The notes below the pieces were generated by a model. It was given only the letters and a program-made list of their open reading frames with translations, had not been told where the DNA came from and searched no databases. 64,000 nt of DNA. Source: Nitrospira sp. (GTDB lineage Bacteria > Nitrospirota > Nitrospiria > Nitrospirales > Nitrospiraceae). The stretch is taken from contig JALHMZ010000001.1 of the NCBI GenBank assembly GCA_022843785.1, positions 83,516-147,515 of the forward strand. The letters are read 5' to 3'. Of this stretch, positions 1-28,715 are shown in pieces. A program made the translations under genes and the position numbers. Each line of letters begins with the position of its first letter. The stretch's first letter is position 1.

Positions 1-698
1 CACTCGCGTTGAAGAGTCAGACCGGCGGGAGTTCTCGAGACTTGTGCCATGGGCTCTAGGTTGCCGGCTTCCTGTCGTCCCGGAGCAGATAATCCGAAAC
101 GCATGGGAACTGCCTGTGAAAGCCTCGTTTGCTGCACCACATGCGTCAACTCATGCGCCAAAAGGCGTTGCCCATCCGGAGCCTCGGGCGCATAGCGGCC
201 ACCACCAAAGACAACATGGGAGCCAACCGTATAAGCCAGCGCATTCACGTCCCGCGCGGACTGCTGCGCTTCGCCATCCGTATGCACCCGCACCTGGCTG
301 AGATCCCGCCCGAAACGCGGCTCGAAGAATGCACGAGTCGAGGCTGACAGAGGCTGCCCCGGCGAACGAAGTGTTGCATGCACTGACCGGGGGGCCTCAC
401 CGGCAACAGACCCTTCTGCTTTCCGTGACACCGTTACTGCTTCCTCTTCTTCACAGGCCGCGCATTGCCGCTGAATACTCTGCTCCGGCATCCGCATGAC
501 CTGATCCGCAACGCGGTCAGCTTCCTGCTCAGCGGGATCATCCGGCCGGCTGATGGCCAGCTTGGGTTGCAGAAAGAGCGGCATGCCGGCGGATCCGCCG
601 ACCCCTTGTCCCGCAGCCAACGGAGACTCAGCTGCCGGTTGCGCACTCGAATGGCTGCGCGTTTTCTCATTCGGTTTTGTGGTTAGCGTGGCCTGCAT
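1..698 (-). CDS. DUF4157 (eCIS core domain) protein, 5' part only; absent from the ORF track
   Basis: Manual translation from ATG at 698: MQATLTTKPN...LQPKLAISRPDDPAEQEADRVADQVMRMP...FFEPRFGRDLSQVRVHTD...ALAYTVGSHVVFG...LLAHELTHVVQQ...LTLQRE. The frame is open to base 1. Confidence 0.9.
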   Translation of the reverse strand, partial: MQATLTTKPNEKTRSHSSAQPAAESPLAAGQGVGGSAGMPLFLQPKLAISRPDDPAEQEADRVADQVMRMPEQSIQRQCAACEEEEAVTVSRKAEGSVAGEAPRSVHATLRSPGQPLSASTRAFFEPRFGRDLSQVRVHTDGEAQQSARDVNALAYTVGSHVVFGGGRYAPEAPDGQRLLAHELTHVVQQTRLSQAVPMRFGLSAPGRQEAGNLEPMAQVSRTPAGLTLQRE

Positions 699-708
699 CG
701 CGCATCGC

Positions 709-2754
709 TCACAGTGGCGTCATCCATTCCGTGGGCACCTGCCGCCCTAACTTTCGGTATTCGGCAACGAGCCCCACCACAAGATCGGCAAAGCCGATGG
801 AACGACCGGCGTGCTGCGCAACAACTGCGGCCGTCAGCACCACATTGCGGATGTGCCCGCCGGCCAGATCGACCGTGGCGGCTAATCGATTGAGTTCCTG
901 CTGTGCCAACCGATGATCGGCCCCCAAATGCGCCGCCCACAGCCCCCGCCGTTCCTCCGGGCCCGGCGCGGGAAACTCGACGATCATGTCGAGGCGCCGG
1001 GAAAAGGCGCCGTCGAAGCGGCTCCGGCTGTTGCTCGTGAGCAGAACGATCCCGTCGTAGGATTCGATGCGCTGCAACAAGTAATTGGTTTGCGAATTCG
1101 CAAATCGATCGTTGGAGTCCTTGATCTCAGTGCGTTTGCCGAAAAGCGAATCGGCCTCATCGAATAACAGGACCACATCGGACCGCTCGGCCTGGGCAAA
1201 GAGCTGCGCAAGATTCTTCTCGGTCTCGCCGATATACTTGCTCGTGACCGAAGCCAGATCGACGCGATACAGAGGCAATCCCAATTTGGTCGCCAGCCAT
1301 CCGGCAGCCAAGGTCTTTCCCGTCCCGGACGGGCCGACAAAAAGCGCCCGGACCCCGGGGCGATAGCGTGCCGTGACCGCCACCCCCAATGGGGAAGCCA
1401 GTCCCTCACGCAAGCGACAGCGAGCAACCAGTACCTTGAGTTCTCGCGCAAGAGACTCAGGGACCACCAACGCGTCGTCAGGGATCGGATCGCGCATGGC
1501 CTGGGCCAACATATCCAATCCGGTTCCGGCTCCGGTCACCGAGACAGCCACCACATCGGCTGCCACCGGTGAAGGACGCCCCTGCAACGCCGCCTGCCGG
1601 CGTGCTAATTCTCCCAGCATCTGAATCCTCGCACTGCTATGACGATGGGACTGTGCCAAGGCTTCCGCCGAATCCCCCTCCCCGATAGCCCGATGCCACA
1701 ACCCCTCGCGTTCCTGCGCCGTGGGGATCGGCAGCGTCCAACAGGGCACCGCCCGGCCCGCACGTTCGACGGCGCCGTCAGATGCCGTCACAGCCAACAC
1801 CGGACCAGCGTAGCCGGGAATGTCCGGCAGCACTTTCCGCTCTCCGGGACCCGCTTCTATCACAAAGACCGGAATCAACCCACGCAGCAGCAACCAGGGT
1901 CCGAGACCGGAGACCTTGTCCGTCTCCATAAACACCGGACGGCACTGCGCCGCCTGGGTGATGGCGGAAGCCGCGGACTTGGCCTCAGCCAGGAATCCGC
2001 TCCTGATCAGCAGGCTCTGATGCGCCGCCCCAGTCACGCTTTCAGCATGACGCCGCGACGATTCCAATAGGGATGGCGGCATCGCCACCTCAGACTCAGC
2101 CGGTAAGCCGATAGAAGCTCCTGGCCACATTCCGTCATAGCCGCGCAACGCCAGGCCAATCGCTTGAGGAACCGATACCGCCCGCTCCGGGACAGGGCTG
2201 TCGTCCCCCCCCAACACCAGCAGCCCGCCCCTCATCGCAGCTCCCGCGAGCAACACATCGAGCGCACAACGCCCCGGCCCCACCAGATCGGTGAACGCAG
2301 CTGCCAGCAAACCCAACATCGGACGAGGGCCTCCGATAGGAGCTTGCAGAAAAGCCAACACACGCCCTGCCATCAGATCTTCATCAACTGCTGCGGCCAA
2401 CGCAATGGACAATGTTTCTACTGCGGTACATGACAAGGCTGCCGCCACATGTGCCAGGGCGCGATCCTCTCGCTCGGGTTTCTCCATCGCCGCCCACACG
2501 GCTTGCACCCATTGCGTCTTATCAGACGGCACCTGCTTGAGAAACTCGGCCACATACAGCCACTCCCGGCTCTCTCGATTCAGAGCCGGATTCCCCTGCG
2601 CCAAGGAAGCGACTGCCGACAAGGCCAGGATACGCAACCTCGGCTGCGGCGCCGAATCGGCTCGCCGTTCAGCCGACTCATGAGGAGCGCGCTGAGACGA
2701 GGAGTCCTCGTTCGCGCGTTGCTCCTCAACGCCCAGCGATTCCACCGGTCCCAT
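709..2754 (-). CDS. AAA+ ATPase of CIS (Afp15/Pvc15-like)
   Basis: Walker A GPSGTGKT, Walker B VLLFDEAD and the DRFANSQTNYLLQRIE motif. Start moved to ATG 2754 because AAGGAG lies just upstream. Confidence 0.9.
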   Translation of the reverse strand: MGPVESLGVEEQRANEDSSSQRAPHESAERRADSAPQPRLRILALSAVASLAQGNPALNRESREWLYVAEFLKQVPSDKTQWVQAVWAAMEKPEREDRALAHVAAALSCTAVETLSIALAAAVDEDLMAGRVLAFLQAPIGGPRPMLGLLAAAFTDLVGPGRCALDVLLAGAAMRGGLLVLGGDDSPVPERAVSVPQAIGLALRGYDGMWPGASIGLPAESEVAMPPSLLESSRRHAESVTGAAHQSLLIRSGFLAEAKSAASAITQAAQCRPVFMETDKVSGLGPWLLLRGLIPVFVIEAGPGERKVLPDIPGYAGPVLAVTASDGAVERAGRAVPCWTLPIPTAQEREGLWHRAIGEGDSAEALAQSHRHSSARIQMLGELARRQAALQGRPSPVAADVVAVSVTGAGTGLDMLAQAMRDPIPDDALVVPESLARELKVLVARCRLREGLASPLGVAVTARYRPGVRALFVGPSGTGKTLAAGWLATKLGLPLYRVDLASVTSKYIGETEKNLAQLFAQAERSDVVLLFDEADSLFGKRTEIKDSNDRFANSQTNYLLQRIESYDGIVLLTSNSRSRFDGAFSRRLDMIVEFPAPGPEERRGLWAAHLGADHRLAQQELNRLAATVDLAGGHIRNVVLTAAVVAQHAGRSIGFADLVVGLVAEYRKLGRQVPTEWMTPL

Positions 2755-27147: not shown

Positions 27148-27256
27148 TACTATTGGGGGATAGGAGGAAGATGCACCACAGGTTCCTGATGGATGCCATT
27201 AGGAACTTCACGAGGGCACATGGCCACAGCTACTCGGACAACGAGGTGCGTATACG

Positions 27257-28249
27257 CTAGGAAAACTGGCTTCGGTGCAATTGGTGCTTCGTGAGGAGTC
27301 GCTGGAAGGATCGCCGTTCTTTACCAGCAGCTTTGGCGGCGTGTGTAATATTGCCGCGATGTACTCTGAGCAGGTTGATAAGGTAGGTCCTTTCGAATTC
27401 CTGCATGGCAGTCATTTTTGCCTGACTCAATGTGCCGGAGGTTGTCTCAGCAACCATGGCTCCGGCCAATTCCACATGATAGGTCTCGATCGTTCCTCCT
27501 CCGCTATGGAGCACAGCGCGTTGCAATACGCCTTCCAGCTCCCGGATATTACCGGGCCAACTATGCGCCATCAGCTTGTGCAGCGCCTCCTCTGAAACCG
27601 ATACTGGTCCATAGCCATGAACCCGCCCATAGTGTTCTGCAAAATGCGCCGCCAACAGGGGAAGATCTCCAAACCGGTAACGTAACGGCGGAATAGTGAC
27701 CGACAACACATGCAATCGATAAAATAAGTCCTCTCGAAACCTCTTCTCCTGTACCAACACCAACAGGTCGGCATTCGATGCCACCACCACCCGAACATCA
27801 GCATAGGCGAACTTTGCACAACCGACAGGGCGGTATTCTCCCCGCTGAAGAAACCGAAGCAGCTTGGCCTGAGCCGGAAAACTCAGCGCATCGATTTCAT
27901 CAAGAAACAACGTGCCCCCGTGCGCTTCCGCCACCAAACCTCTTTCTGCTGAGGCCGCGTCCGTATAGGCTCCTTTGCTATGGCCAAAGAGCTCGTTCTC
28001 GATCAACGCATCCGGCAACGCTCCGCAATTTACCGGGATAAAGGGCTGTCCGCGTCTCACGCCGTGATAGTGGATTGCGCGTGCAAACAGCTCTTTACCA
28101 GTGCCCGTTTCCCCCGTAATCAAGACGGTCGCACCTGTTCCTGCAAAGAGCTTGATTTTCTCAAGCGTGCGGAGAAATACCTCGCTTTCGCCGACTAAGG
28201 TGTCGAAGTGTATGCGCGGGGACAGATCCCGGCTCTCAACATCGGGCAT
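27257..28249 (-). CDS. Sigma54-dependent transcriptional activator (bEBP) lacking an N-terminal sensory domain
   Basis: GETGTGKE, ELFGH.KGAYTDA (GAFTGA variant), FLDEI, REDLFYRL, WPGNIREL and a C-terminal Fis-type HTH. An in-frame stop upstream excludes an N-terminal extension. Confidence 0.92.
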   Translation of the reverse strand: MPDVESRDLSPRIHFDTLVGESEVFLRTLEKIKLFAGTGATVLITGETGTGKELFARAIHYHGVRRGQPFIPVNCGALPDALIENELFGHSKGAYTDAASAERGLVAEAHGGTLFLDEIDALSFPAQAKLLRFLQRGEYRPVGCAKFAYADVRVVVASNADLLVLVQEKRFREDLFYRLHVLSVTIPPLRYRFGDLPLLAAHFAEHYGRVHGYGPVSVSEEALHKLMAHSWPGNIRELEGVLQRAVLHSGGGTIETYHVELAGAMVAETTSGTLSQAKMTAMQEFERTYLINLLRVHRGNITHAAKAAGKERRSFQRLLTKHQLHRSQFS

Positions 28250-28715
28250 TCGCACCCCTCCATCCAAGACCCGTCAATATCCCGACTCCGTCATCCATCT
28301 CACGCCCGGTCGTCTAAGTAATTCCTCGCATGATAGACCGCAGGGTACAAAATTCTCTTGCGAAGGTCCAGCCAGTATATCTTGACGTATCGTAGCAGGC
28401 TCCTCCTACCGGTAGTGGATTTCAACCTCCAGGCCAAAAGACTCTGTGATGCGTCGAATCTTACGCCCTACCAGCTGTACGGCCTGGATCATTGTTCCCA
28501 AGACAGACGTGACGGCACCGCATTGACTGAGGCGGCGATCAACATGGACCTTGTCACAAGAATCGGGCACCCTGCCAATCAAACTTCCACGGATCGCTGC
28601 AGCGCTATCATACTCAAGCACCTGGTGTTTACAGGAAGAACACGGTTCTCTGCGCGATCCCTTCTTGGATCGACACAAATACAGAAAAGGCAGGCAAGAA
28701 ATACGGTGGACGATG

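What the first reader, a model, noticed from the sequence alone, without database searches (positions are those of the whole stretch)
1..28267. Atypical sigma54-controlled contractile injection system, possibly membrane-tethered
Seen: a full CIS core set with no PAAR gene, no LysM, no holin or endolysin in the window, a long hydrophobic-tailed protein beside the spike, split PKD modules and three paralogous fibre-like genes. Known: eCIS loci (Afp, PVC, MAC, AlgoCIS, thylakoid tCIS, Streptomyces CIS) share this core, and some act inside the cell while anchored to a membrane. Inference: this is a variant architecture, apparently in a Nitrospira-like autotroph, where I know of no functional study.
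Basis: partly seen in the sequence, partly recalled or inferred. Interest (0 to 1): 0.85.

Follow-up and report, generated by a model that had tools for sequence, protein, structure and literature searches.

The report
PAAR-less contractile injection system in Nitrospira
This is a complete phage-tail-like injection machine that a Nitrospira acquired horizontally; its odd features are the normal layout of a widespread subtype that no paper I searched reports as studied, including a conserved membrane-anchored protein beside the spike and adhesion domains split between separate proteins.

Summary
Window 1-28267 (minus strand) carries a full contractile injection system (CIS) behind a sigma54 activator and a sigma54 promoter.

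- **PAAR and LysM:** no PAAR gene exists anywhere in the genome, and no LysM on this contig.
- **Membrane protein:** a 500-aa protein with a hydrophobic C-terminus ("TM500") lies between the spike and gp25.
- **Split PKD:** two PKD domains are split across three polypeptides.
- **Fibre-like genes:** three follow, sharing a Cis13-like N-terminus.

The locus is not atypical. The same gene order recurs in all 80 related loci examined, from at least 9 phyla. The TM500 family matched 247 places in a collection holding one genome per species. The gene content matches the published PAAR-less dbeCIS subtype IIb. I found no paper on a characterised member.

The locus runs about 10.6 kb past the window's left edge. 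That stretch holds four more DUF4157 effectors, two metallopeptidase-like genes and a co-inherited amidase with no signal peptide.

New here:
- TM500's hydrophobic tail is the most conserved part of the family, and its N-domain has no fold relative.
- The half-PKD on Cis12 co-occurs perfectly with the two small genes (43/43 against 0/21).
- The fused halves model as a canonical PKD domain.

Membrane tethering is plausible (about 0.4) but untested. Verdict: a new member of a known kind.

The parts
27257..28267 (-). Sigma54 enhancer-binding protein, 336 aa: AAA+ domain from residue 24 plus HTH_8, with no receiver or sensor domain
   Evidence: Pfam Sigma54_activat 1.3e-61, AAA_lid_14, HTH_8. The same gene sits in the same place in Nitrospira NS4.
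26957..26972 (-). Sigma54 -24/-12 promoter AGGCATGGGGTTTGCT, about 35 nt upstream of the first CIS gene
   Evidence: One of 2 matches in the window. It is a conserved island in an otherwise diverged spacer compared with NS4. The same motif lies upstream of 8 of 39 related loci, against 0.34 expected. rpoN is present.
26646..26921 (-). 91-aa first gene of the operon, function unknown
   Evidence: No family hit. A homologue lies in the same position in 14 related loci.
26069..26653 (-). Cis16 / Pvc16_N tail terminator (cap)
   Evidence: Pfam Pvc16_N 2.1e-37.
25323..26072 (-). 249-aa conserved subtype gene, function unknown
   Evidence: No Pfam, NCBIfam, PHROG or PDB hit. Present in 56 of 80 loci, always between Cis16 and the sheath.
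23578..25350 (-). Sheath A (Cis2)
   Evidence: Pfam Phage_sheath_1 and Phage_sheath_1C. Nearest solved: 9ezm haloarchaeal CIS 6e-105, 8bky 2e-100.
23110..23559 (-). Tube A (Cis1)
   Evidence: Pfam Phage_T4_gp19 7e-38.
21529..23100 (-). Sheath B (divergent second sheath)
   Evidence: Pfam Phage_sheath_1C 1e-3. Conserved position in relatives.
21006..21485 (-). Tube B (Cis5-like)
   Evidence: Pfam Phage_T4_gp19 7e-32.
19938..20987 (-). Cis7 (tube initiator) homologue with no LysM; the C-terminal ~200 aa are Gly/Ala/Ser-rich
   Evidence: Pfam CIS_tube 4e-23. Aligns to Pvc7/Afp7 over residues 22-166 only. Sequence.
19776..19934 (-). Conserved 52-aa ORF; possible Cis6 (spike plug) equivalent by position only
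   Evidence: Read from the sequence. ORFs of 52-61 aa lie at the same place in relatives. No similarity to any solved chain.
18644..19732 (-). gp27/gpD-like hub (first half of the split VgrG)
   Evidence: Pfam Phage_GPD 7e-8.
17958..18671 (-). gp5/gpV-like spike (second half of the split VgrG)
   Evidence: Pfam Phage_base_V 5e-22. Aligns to the C-terminal part of tCIS All3320 (1e-19) and to the matching AlgoCIS-entry chain (7aef_q) and Afp8.
16462..17964 (-). TM500: 500-aa protein with a folded N-domain (1-400), a flexible linker and a conserved hydrophobic C-terminus (455-494)
   Evidence: Hydrophobicity scan. At least 789 homologues with no Pfam domain; 1487 representatives at 50% identity. 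AF2 pLDDT 80.5 with a helix at 462-486. No fold hit in PDB or BFVD. The C-terminus is the most conserved part.
16067..16465 (-). gp25 (Cis9) baseplate wedge; likely start is the ATG at 16465, overlapping the TM500 stop
   Evidence: Pfam GPW_gp25 5e-23. Relatives have 130-132 aa genes with a 4-nt overlap.
13778..16063 (-). Cis11 (Baseplate_J)
   Evidence: Pfam Baseplate_J 4.5e-12. Nearest solved: 9gtp, S. coelicolor CIS, 2e-34.
11153..13672 (-). Cis12 (Tail_P2_I), 839 aa. Its last ~45 residues are the N-terminal half of a PKD domain.
   Evidence: Pfam Tail_P2_I 1.5e-9. C-terminus matches PKD_4 positions 3-40. The half-PKD is present in 43/43 loci that have the small genes and 0/21 that lack them.
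10807..11112 (-). 101-aa protein: C-terminal half of PKD 1 followed by N-terminal half of PKD 2
   Evidence: K319L-like_PKD positions 57-84. Same layout in 43 loci, each gene with its own start, and with gaps that vary in length and frame.
10444..10797 (-). 117-aa protein: C-terminal half of PKD 2, then a Pro-rich linker and a polybasic tail
   Evidence: Joined halves match K319L-like_PKD positions 15-81. The read-through fusion models as a PKD domain. Tail statistics.
9566..10447 (-). Cis13-like protein a (293 aa)
   Evidence: NCBIfam CIS13_fam N-terminal match 3.6e-9, far under the family cut-off.
8023..9636 (-). Cis13-like protein b (537 aa), with a Pro-rich polybasic C-terminus
   Evidence: CIS13_fam N-terminal match 6e-8. 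Paralogue of protein c, E 4e-13.
4209..8018 (-). Cis13-like protein c (1269 aa), fibre-like
   Evidence: About 390 aa shared with protein b. No family hit.
2726..4201 (-). 491-aa protein of unknown function, just upstream of the ATPase
   Evidence: No hit in Pfam, NCBIfam or PHROGs.
709..2775 (-). Cis15 AAA+ ATPase
   Evidence: Pfam AAA 6.8e-25.
1..698 (-). First of five tandem DUF4157 effectors. It is 503 aa in full and runs off the left edge.
   Evidence: Pfam eCIS_core 1.3e-33. Full length and four more copies to the left. N-terminal ~190 aa are shared at 60-87% identity; the C-termini are unrelated.

Best explanation
SHOWN.
- This is a complete contractile injection system on an island about 39 kb long. 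The structural part has higher G+C (0.62 against 0.55).
- It belongs to a widespread PAAR-less lineage-II subtype whose gene content matches dbeCIS IIb.
- The spike is split into gp27-like and gp5-like proteins.
- Cis7 lacks LysM.
- Cis12 ends in half a PKD domain. Two small proteins complete it, making a chain of two PKD domains from three polypeptides.
- Three Cis13-like genes and a Cis15 ATPase follow. Then come five DUF4157-led proteins with unrelated C-termini.

INFERRED.
- The stand-alone sigma54 activator drives the operon from the -24/-12 promoter.
- Cis15 loads the DUF4157-led effectors.
- The PKD chain and the Cis13-like proteins decorate the periphery of the baseplate.

MOST LIKELY MECHANISM FOR THE KEY UNKNOWN (about 0.4). 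TM500 is made together with the spike and gp25. Its folded N-domain binds the spike/baseplate. Its C-terminal hydrophobic tail sits in the producer's cytoplasmic membrane. The machine would then be docked to, or triggered at, a membrane rather than acting only as a free particle. Known parallels are tail-anchored Cis13 of the Anabaena tCIS, the haloarchaeal anchor Hbor_38620, and CisA of Streptomyces.
For: Identity and subtype: core set; no PAAR here, none in 10 of 15 carrier genomes, elsewhere in the other 5; published IIb features; 80 loci, same order.

Island and transfer: G+C; full-length TM500 in 2 of 301 genomes of the phylum and in none of the same-genus genomes listed; in the Cis11 tree another Nitrospirota locus sits in a different clade.

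Sigma54.

Split PKD: pLDDT 88.3; ColG PKD, TM-score 0.87, rmsd 1.8 A.

Effectors: and PMC8213781.

TM500 as a membrane adaptor:
- Start and stop overlap gpV and gp25, here and in relatives.
- One copy per genome, found at the CIS locus wherever context was examined.
- The AF2 model shows a globular domain, a low-confidence linker at 401-460, one helix at 462-486 and about 10 residues after it.
- The nearest solved sheath and baseplate proteins come from two systems that are not free extracellular particles: 9ezm, and 9gtp (the S. coelicolor CIS baseplate). Their modes of action are described.
- tCIS uses an N-terminal baseplate binder with a C-terminal transmembrane helix.
Against: - No experiment and no multimer model links TM500 to the spike or to a membrane.
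- The hydrophobic tail is the most conserved part of the family (0.84 against 0.51-0.65). That is unusual for a plain anchor and fits a pore, tip or oligomeric role as well.
- The fibre-like Cis13 paralogues, the PKD adhesion-type modules and the effector array with no immunity genes between its members fit a released eCIS.
- In Nitrospiraceae an endolysin-like amidase travels with the locus.
- The genome has no TssM, so nothing known would carry the tube across the outer layers of a diderm.
- Subtype IIb membership rests on gene content, not on a tree that includes dbeCIS members.
Confidence: 0.45

Rival explanations
1. Classical extracellular CIS. Particles are released by lysis and bind targets through the Cis13-like fibres and PKD modules. 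TM500 rides on the gp5-like spike in the place of PAAR. Its hydrophobic tail is shielded in the particle and inserts into the target membrane on firing, as a tip or translocon.
For: - TM500 occupies the slot next to the spike in a subtype that has no PAAR.
- The extreme conservation of its hydrophobic 40 residues suggests a specific membrane-active role.
- There are three fibre-like genes with a Cis13-type N-terminus.
- A published catalogue treats such Tail_P2_I-linked proteins as eCIS fibres.
- The DUF4157 effectors have no immunity genes between them.
- A cytoplasmic Amidase_2+SH3 protein is co-inherited in 3 of 3 Nitrospiraceae carriers examined and absent from 27 of 30 same-genus genomes.
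Against: - There is no holin, and no room for one in the intergenic gaps.
- The amidase linkage is specific to this lineage: in the 13 other carriers no Amidase_2 hit lies on the CIS contig.
- The TM500 N-domain shows no PAAR-like or other known fold.
- A 60-residue flexible linker is not what a rigid tip needs.
Confidence: 0.3
2. TM500 is not part of the working machine. It is a membrane-disrupting effector loaded on the spike, or an assembly or regulatory factor.
For: - Spike-linked membrane-active effectors are known in T6SS (my own knowledge).
- CisA of Streptomyces is needed for firing but is absent from purified particles.
- TM500 has no detectable relative among solved CIS parts.
Against: - It holds an invariant position and is translationally coupled to structural genes in 80 loci.
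- There is one copy per genome and no adjacent immunity gene.
- It shows about 40-50% identity across phyla, unlike the fast-changing effectors in the same locus.
Confidence: 0.13
3. Defective prophage tail or R-type tailocin rather than a dedicated injection system.
For: All core parts are phage-tail homologues.
Against: - No capsid, portal, terminase or integrase turned up in the 28-kb finding or the 20 kb to its left that I scanned, and the window has no tRNA gene.
- It has the CIS-specific set: Pvc16_N, CIS_tube, an AAA ATPase and DUF4157 effectors.
- The gene order is fixed across phyla.
Confidence: 0.02

Closest known systems
dbeCIS subtype IIb (Chen et al. 2019, PMC6899500)
   Same: It is the only lineage-II subtype without afp10/PAAR. 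afp8 is split into gp27 and gp5 ORFs. There is a single afp11, divergent afp12 and afp13, and two or three unannotated subtype-specific genes. The window meets each of these.
   Different: Membership was not tested with an Afp11 tree that includes dbeCIS entries. The paper reports afp6 in IIb. Here only a conserved 52-aa ORF in the right place could stand for it, and it shows no detectable similarity. The paper gives no function for the subtype genes. In the papers I searched I found no mention of the tail-anchored protein or the split PKD domains.
Streptomyces coelicolor CIS-Sc (subtype IId) with membrane protein CisA (PMC12237407)
   Same: Cis11 and Cis12 find their nearest solved relatives in the CIS-Sc baseplate entry 9gtp (2e-34 and 2e-9), and the sheath scores 2e-100 against 8bky, which shares its sheath sequence with 9gtp. 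CIS-Sc has no conventional tail fibres. A cluster-encoded membrane protein is needed for its firing.
   Different: - IId has a single-piece VgrG and PAAR; here the spike is split and PAAR is absent.
- CisA has a mid-chain transmembrane segment and a periplasmic domain and lies after the baseplate genes. TM500 is tail-anchored and lies between the spike and gp25.
- CIS-Sc Cis12 is 190 aa; here it is 839 aa with a half-PKD.
Haloarchaeal T6SS-like CIS of Halogeometricum borinquense (clade IIa, PDB 9ezm, PMC11566945)
   Same: It gives the best solved sheath match (6e-105). It also has DUF4157 proteins in the cluster, and a conserved membrane protein correlates with membrane-bound firing.
   Different: Its anchor, Hbor_38620, has six transmembrane helices and lies outside the core cluster. 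It carries toxin-immunity pairs. Chen et al. give subtype IIa two afp11 copies and PAAR.
Thylakoid-anchored tCIS of Anabaena PCC 7120 (PDB 7b5h, PMC8894136)
   Same: Anchoring works through a protein with an N-terminal baseplate-binding domain and a C-terminal transmembrane helix (Cis13). Cis12 carries extra domains. The spike gives the best solved match to the window's gp5-like protein (1e-19).
   Different: tCIS has PAAR-like Cis10, LysM on Cis7 and a one-piece VgrG. Here the Cis13-like proteins show no convincing transmembrane segment, and the anchor candidate is a different, unrelated protein.
Afp / PVC (subtype Ia extracellular CIS)
   Same: Shared core parts: sheath, tube, Cis7 tube domain, gp25, J, Pvc16_N and the AAA ATPase.
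   Different: Afp and PVC have PAAR, LysM, a tape measure, adenovirus-type fibres and a one-piece VgrG. The gene order here starts with Cis16.

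Membership tests
Contractile injection system (Afp/PVC-like CIS superfamily) | Sheath, tube, tube initiator, spike, gp25, Baseplate_J, Pvc16_N terminator and AAA ATPase in one cluster, with no head genes | tested here: met
   Pfam hits for every part. No capsid or terminase hits in the finding region or in the 20 kb to its left.
dbeCIS subtype IIb | afp10 / PAAR absent | tested here: met
   No PF05488 hit in the whole genome. None in 10 of 15 carrier genomes; elsewhere in the other 5.
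dbeCIS subtype IIb | afp8 split into gp27-like and gp5-like ORFs; single afp11 | tested here: met
   Phage_GPD at 18644-19732 and Phage_base_V at 17958-18671 are separate genes. There is one Baseplate_J gene.
dbeCIS subtype IIb | Divergent afp12 and afp13 present | tested here: met
   Tail_P2_I protein. Two proteins give N-terminal CIS13_fam matches, far under the family cut-off.
dbeCIS subtype IIb | afp6 present | tested here: inconclusive
   A conserved 52-aa ORF lies between Cis7 and the hub, but it is similar to no solved chain.
dbeCIS subtype IIb | Placement inside the IIb clade of the Afp11 tree | not testable with these tools
My Cis11 tree holds only relatives found here.
Canonical T6SS (i-iii) | TssJLM membrane complex | tested here: not met
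   No IcmF-related (TssM, PF06761) hit in the genome. TssJ and TssL were not searched.
Streptomyces-type cytoplasmic CIS (IId) | One-piece VgrG, PAAR and a CisA-type bitopic membrane protein after the baseplate genes | tested here: not met
   The spike is split and PAAR is absent. TM500 has a different topology and position and no relative in the PDB, which does not hold CisA; the CisA sequence itself was not compared.
Thylakoid-anchored tCIS type | Cis13 with a C-terminal transmembrane helix; PAAR-like Cis10; LysM on Cis7 | tested here: not met
   The three Cis13-like proteins have no strong hydrophobic segment at the C-terminus. No PAAR and no LysM.
Sigma54-dependent operon | GG-N10-GC promoter upstream, an enhancer-binding protein nearby, rpoN in the genome | tested here: met
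   The promoter is conserved in NS4 and enriched in relatives. Transcription itself was not tested.
PKD domain | One complete beta-sandwich, about 85 aa long, matching the family profile end to end | tested here: met
   Met only when two polypeptides are joined: profile positions 1-84 of 84, E 1.2e-5, 25.7 bits against a cut-off of 27. The fused model has pLDDT 88.3 and TM-score 0.87 to the ColG PKD domain. No single gene product holds a whole domain.

The most novel reading that the evidence does not exclude
The TM500 family defines a so far undescribed way of coupling a contractile injection system to a membrane. It is a tail-anchored protein built into the spike/baseplate in place of PAAR, with a near-invariant 40-residue hydrophobic module. 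The module either docks the machine to the producer's inner membrane, giving T6SS-like firing without TssJLM in diderm bacteria, or forms the membrane-entry device at the tip. Alongside it, the baseplate rim is extended by PKD domains that exist only as complexes of separate polypeptides, which would be a non-covalent split-domain assembly principle. Both features would apply to hundreds of species, including Nitrospira, Accumulibacter, Thauera and Variovorax.
Probability: 0.3. Interest if true: 0.8.

Novelty: new member of a known kind. Interest (0 to 1): 0.55.

Why it matters
CIS modes of action are an active question: extracellular, T6SS-like, thylakoid-anchored or cytoplasmic. Every newly imaged lineage so far has added a mode.

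This subtype matched 247 places in a collection of one genome per species. Its carriers include organisms that run nitrification and phosphorus removal in wastewater plants, and culturable bacteria such as Variovorax, Thauera sinica and Hydrogenophaga sp. Root209. I found no characterised member.

The work here turns a vague "atypical locus" into three testable points:
- what the conserved tail-anchored protein in the PAAR slot does;
- whether PKD domains really assemble from separate chains;
- whether sigma54 control, seen in at least 8 related loci, ties firing to a stress or nutrient signal.

Split-domain connectors and a PAAR-free spike could also interest people who re-engineer these particles for protein delivery.

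Tried and rejected
- **TM500 identity.** Pfam, NCBIfam, PHROGs and PDB sequence searches found nothing. Foldseek of a confident model against PDB and BFVD gave no match at E<=0.001. I therefore rejected readings as a hidden PAAR, tape measure or known baseplate part.
- **Amidase as a general lysis gene.** Rejected. It is linked only in Nitrospiraceae. In the 13 other carriers no Amidase_2 hit lies on the CIS contig.
- **Holin.** No candidate ORF lies near the amidase, and the intergenic gaps are too small.
- **52-aa ORF as Cis6.** No detectable similarity, so this is left as a positional guess.
- **249-aa and 491-aa proteins.** No hits anywhere.
- **Read-through or frameshift as the cause of the split PKD.** Rejected. 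Every small gene has its own start, most follow a visible ribosome-binding site, and the gaps differ in length and frame between loci.
- **First alignment of half-domains for folding.** MAFFT laid N-halves on C-halves. I replaced it with 24 in-frame read-through rows.
- **Palindrome at 27072-27090 as the activator's binding site.** It is not conserved in NS4 and stays unverified.
- **Earlier scan notes.** Only one bears on this locus.

Full report
**What is there.**
All genes of the finding lie on the minus strand, tightly packed and often overlapping. In transcription order they are:
- a sigma54 enhancer-binding protein (27257-28267)
- a 335-nt spacer
- a 91-aa gene
- Pvc16_N / Cis16
- a 249-aa unknown
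- sheath, tube, a second sheath, a second tube
- a CIS_tube (Cis7-like) protein
- a 52-aa ORF
- a Phage_GPD hub
- a Phage_base_V spike
- a 500-aa protein with a hydrophobic C-terminus ("TM500" below)
- gp25, Baseplate_J and a Tail_P2_I protein (Cis12)
- two small genes of 101 and 117 aa
- three larger genes of 293, 537 and 1269 aa
- a 491-aa unknown
- an AAA ATPase
- a DUF4157 (eCIS_core) protein that runs off the left edge

**The locus is longer than the finding.**
The window is C1:83516-147515 of a 3.5-Mb genome that is 99.8% complete. To the left, the cut DUF4157 gene is 503 aa in full. Four more DUF4157 genes follow it (463, 520, 464 and 423 aa). All five share the first ~190 residues at 60-87% identity and have unrelated C-termini. 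This is the polymorphic effector layout described for eCIS-associated toxins (PMC8213781).

Further left lie:
- a 331-aa HExxH protein that keeps part of the same leader
- an astacin-like peptidase
- a 255-aa unknown
- an Amidase_2+SH3 protein with no signal peptide
- ATP-citrate lyase

The structural block has G+C 0.62 against about 0.55 on both sides.

**The negative claims.**
- PAAR (PF05488) gives no hit at E<=1 in a six-frame search of the whole genome.
- LysM (PF01476) has four hits in the genome, none on this contig.
- The Cis7 homologue aligns to Afp7/Pvc7 only over its tube domain. Where a LysM domain would be expected, it has about 200 residues rich in Gly, Ala and Ser.
- No holin-sized ORF fits the intergenic gaps.

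The amidase is the one lysis-type gene. It lies 23-27 kb downstream of the TM500 gene in all three Nitrospiraceae carriers examined. It is missing from 27 of 30 same-genus genomes, so it belongs to the island. In 13 carriers from other phyla no Amidase_2 gene lies on the CIS contig. It is therefore a lineage-specific addition, not a feature of the subtype.

**Not atypical.**
TM500 has at least 789 homologues, none carrying a Pfam domain. A profile search of 1.84 billion cluster representatives finds 1487. A scan of one genome per species found 247 places that encode a relative. The best 80 come from:
- Nitrospirota, Acidobacteriota, Pseudomonadota and Cyanobacteriota
- Chloroflexota, Gemmatimonadota, Verrucomicrobiota, Planctomycetota and Myxococcota

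A tblastn comparison of every window protein against these 80 loci gives one invariant order, as far as each contig reaches: Cis16, 249-aa gene, sheath, tube, sheath, tube, Cis7, hub, spike, TM500, gp25, J, Cis12, (two small genes), three Cis13-like genes.

The layout is the norm for a large family.

Chen et al. 2019 describe lineage-II subtype IIb as:
- the only one lacking afp10/PAAR
- having afp8 split into gp27 and gp5 ORFs
- having one afp11
- having divergent afp12/13
- carrying conserved subtype-specific genes with no known domains

The window meets each of these. Ten of 15 carrier genomes have no PAAR at all. In the other five the PAAR hits lie elsewhere. I could not place the locus in the dbeCIS tree, so IIb membership rests on gene content only.

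**Relatives that have been studied.**
- Sheath: the nearest solved relatives are the haloarchaeal membrane-bound CIS (9ezm, 6e-105) and 8bky (2e-100), which shares its sheath sequence with the S. coelicolor CIS entry 9gtp. Afp, PVC, tCIS and AlgoCIS score 1e-36 to 1e-50.
- Cis11 and Cis12: nearest to the S. coelicolor baseplate (9gtp).
- gp5-like spike: nearest to the tCIS and AlgoCIS spikes.

Of these, the haloarchaeal, Streptomyces and Anabaena systems are not free extracellular particles. Each depends on a membrane protein or an anchor. I found no paper on a characterised member of the present subtype or on any Nitrospira CIS.

**TM500.**
- The gene overlaps gpV by 7 nt and ends in an ATGA overlap with the likely gp25 start. 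Relatives keep both overlaps.
- An AlphaFold2 model built from 60 homologues is confident for residues 1-400 (blocks of pLDDT about 85-97). It is weak for 401-460, predicts one helix at 462-486, and leaves about ten residues after it.
- The model has no match at E<=0.001 in the PDB or in BFVD. It is therefore not a disguised PAAR, tape measure or known baseplate part.
- The hydrophobic stretch 455-494 is the most conserved 40 residues of the family (0.84 against 0.51-0.65 elsewhere), with 14 invariant positions.
- Divergent Nitrospirota loci have a longer protein (761-850 aa) in the same slot. It is recognisable mainly by its C-terminal ~120 residues.
- Each carrier genome has exactly one copy.

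The tail-anchor layout and the flexible linker fit a membrane adaptor. The near-invariance of the hydrophobic module fits a more specific role: an oligomeric bundle, a gate, or a tip that enters a target membrane. Sequence alone cannot decide between them.

**Split PKD domains.**
- The last ~45 residues of Cis12 match the first half of a PKD profile.
- The 101-aa protein is a second half followed by a first half.
- The 117-aa protein is a second half followed by a Pro-rich linker and a polybasic tail.
- Cis12 plus the 101-aa protein, joined, match K319L-like_PKD over positions 1-84 of 84 (E 1.2e-5).
- The 101-aa plus the 117-aa protein match positions 15-81.

The break falls at the same strand boundary in every locus that has the small genes. 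Each small gene has its own start, most with a visible ribosome-binding site. The gaps vary in length and frame, so this is not read-through, frameshifting or a sequencing error.

The half-PKD on Cis12 is present in 43 of 43 loci that have the small genes. It is absent in 21 of 21 that lack them, where Cis12 stops just after a conserved SLDPRL motif. The loci are related, so this is not 64 independent trials. Both states nevertheless recur in several phyla.

I then tested the fold. In the window the 101-aa and 117-aa genes are in frame, 9 nt apart. Reading their TAG as a residue gives a 110-residue chain: the first half, a four-residue link, then the second half. With 24 such in-frame rows from relatives, AlphaFold2 gives pLDDT 88.3 and pTM 0.78, and only the linker is weak. 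The model superposes on the ColG PKD domain with TM-score 0.87 and rmsd 1.8 A. This is a consistency check, not proof of a complex.

I found no report of split PKD domains in CIS papers.

**Cis13-like genes.**
- The 537-aa and 1269-aa proteins share about 390 residues (E 4e-13).
- The 293-aa and 537-aa proteins share only the N-terminal ~100 residues (E 0.004).
- The 293-aa and 1269-aa proteins show no direct match.
- The 293-aa and 537-aa proteins hit the N-terminus of NCBIfam CIS13_fam, far below its cut-off.

A 2026 catalogue groups eCIS fibres by N-terminal baseplate-anchor domains and links two of the groups to Tail_P2_I adaptors. I could not test membership in those groups. None of the three proteins has a convincing C-terminal membrane segment.

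**Sigma54 control.**
- The activator has the AAA+ domain from residue 24 and an HTH_8 domain, but no sensor or receiver domain.
- The -24/-12 match AGGCATGGGGTTTGCT lies about 35 nt upstream of the first gene. It is one of two matches in the window.
- In Nitrospira NS4 the spacer has diverged, but GGCACGGCGTTTGCT sits at the same place.
- rpoN is present.
- The motif occurs upstream of Cis16 in 8 of 39 related loci that have enough upstream DNA, against 0.34 expected.
- Another Nitrospira locus has a GerE-type regulator instead.

Sigma54 control is thus common in the subtype but not universal.

**Origin.**
- Full-length TM500 occurs in 2 of 301 genomes sampled from the phylum. It is found in none of the same-genus genomes listed.
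- In a quick Cis11 tree the window groups with two Nitrospira loci (support 100). A third Nitrospirota locus falls in a different clade. Phylum labels need 15 changes where 8 is the minimum.
- Together with the G+C contrast, this points to horizontal acquisition.

**Verdict.**
This is a standard member of a catalogued subtype for which I found no published characterisation, not an odd variant. My odds for TM500 are:
- about 0.4 for a producer-membrane adaptor
- about 0.3 for a tip or translocon carried by a released particle
- about 0.13 for a role outside the working machine

The remainder is left unassigned.

The subtype-wide features documented here deserve experimental follow-up in a culturable carrier. 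They are the tail-anchored protein in the PAAR slot, the PKD domains assembled from separate chains, and the recurrent sigma54 promoter.

Noticed in passing
L001 9277-19966 (C1:72875-83565, left of the window): The island continues for about 10.6 kb. It holds four more DUF4157 effectors with unrelated C-termini, some with HExxH motifs. It also holds a 331-aa HExxH protein that keeps part of the shared leader, an astacin+PPC peptidase, a 255-aa unknown, and an Amidase_2+SH3 protein with no signal peptide.
   Followed up: partly
window 10444-10797 and 8023-9636; loci L017-L096: A Pro-rich linker ending in a polybasic tail closes the PKD chain in 25 of 42 second small proteins. The same tail ends Cis12 itself in 7 of 21 loci that lack the PKD genes. 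The window's 537-aa Cis13-like protein has one too. It could bind anionic membranes or cell surfaces.
   Followed up: partly
window 27072-27090: A perfect 19-nt palindrome, GCTCCTCATGATGAGGAGC, lies about 100 nt upstream of the sigma54 -24 element. That is where an activator binding site would be expected. It is not conserved in Nitrospira NS4.
   Followed up: partly
window 19938-20987: The Cis7 homologue carries about 200 residues of Gly/Ala/Ser-rich low-complexity sequence in place of LysM. No tape-measure candidate was found in the locus, so what sets tube length is unknown.
   Followed up: no
L097 and L098 (two genomes of another Nitrospirota family): These are more divergent copies of the same CIS layout. 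A 761-850 aa protein sits in the TM500 slot and matches TM500 mainly over its C-terminal ~120 residues, including the hydrophobic module (one locus also has a weak N-terminal match).
   Followed up: partly
L001 7748-8962 and window 34386-38524: The island sits between ATP-citrate lyase and a multi-subunit pyruvate/2-oxoglutarate:ferredoxin oxidoreductase cluster. It is therefore inside the reductive-TCA gene neighbourhood.
   Followed up: no
window 28716-31646: Right of the island lie Fpg/MutM (28716-29546), a dual-specificity-phosphatase-like protein (29669-30082) and a HEPN-domain protein (30984-31646).
   Followed up: no
window 60534-63857: A PilS-like histidine kinase and an NtrC-type sigma54 response regulator lie here. 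The window's only other sigma54-type promoter match (63842-63857, + strand) is just beyond them.
   Followed up: no
L048, L053, L017: The identical promoter core GGCACGGCGTTTGCT lies upstream of this CIS type in Nitrospira NS4, an Accumulibacter and Montanilutibacter psychrotolerans. The promoter may travel with the cluster.
   Followed up: partly
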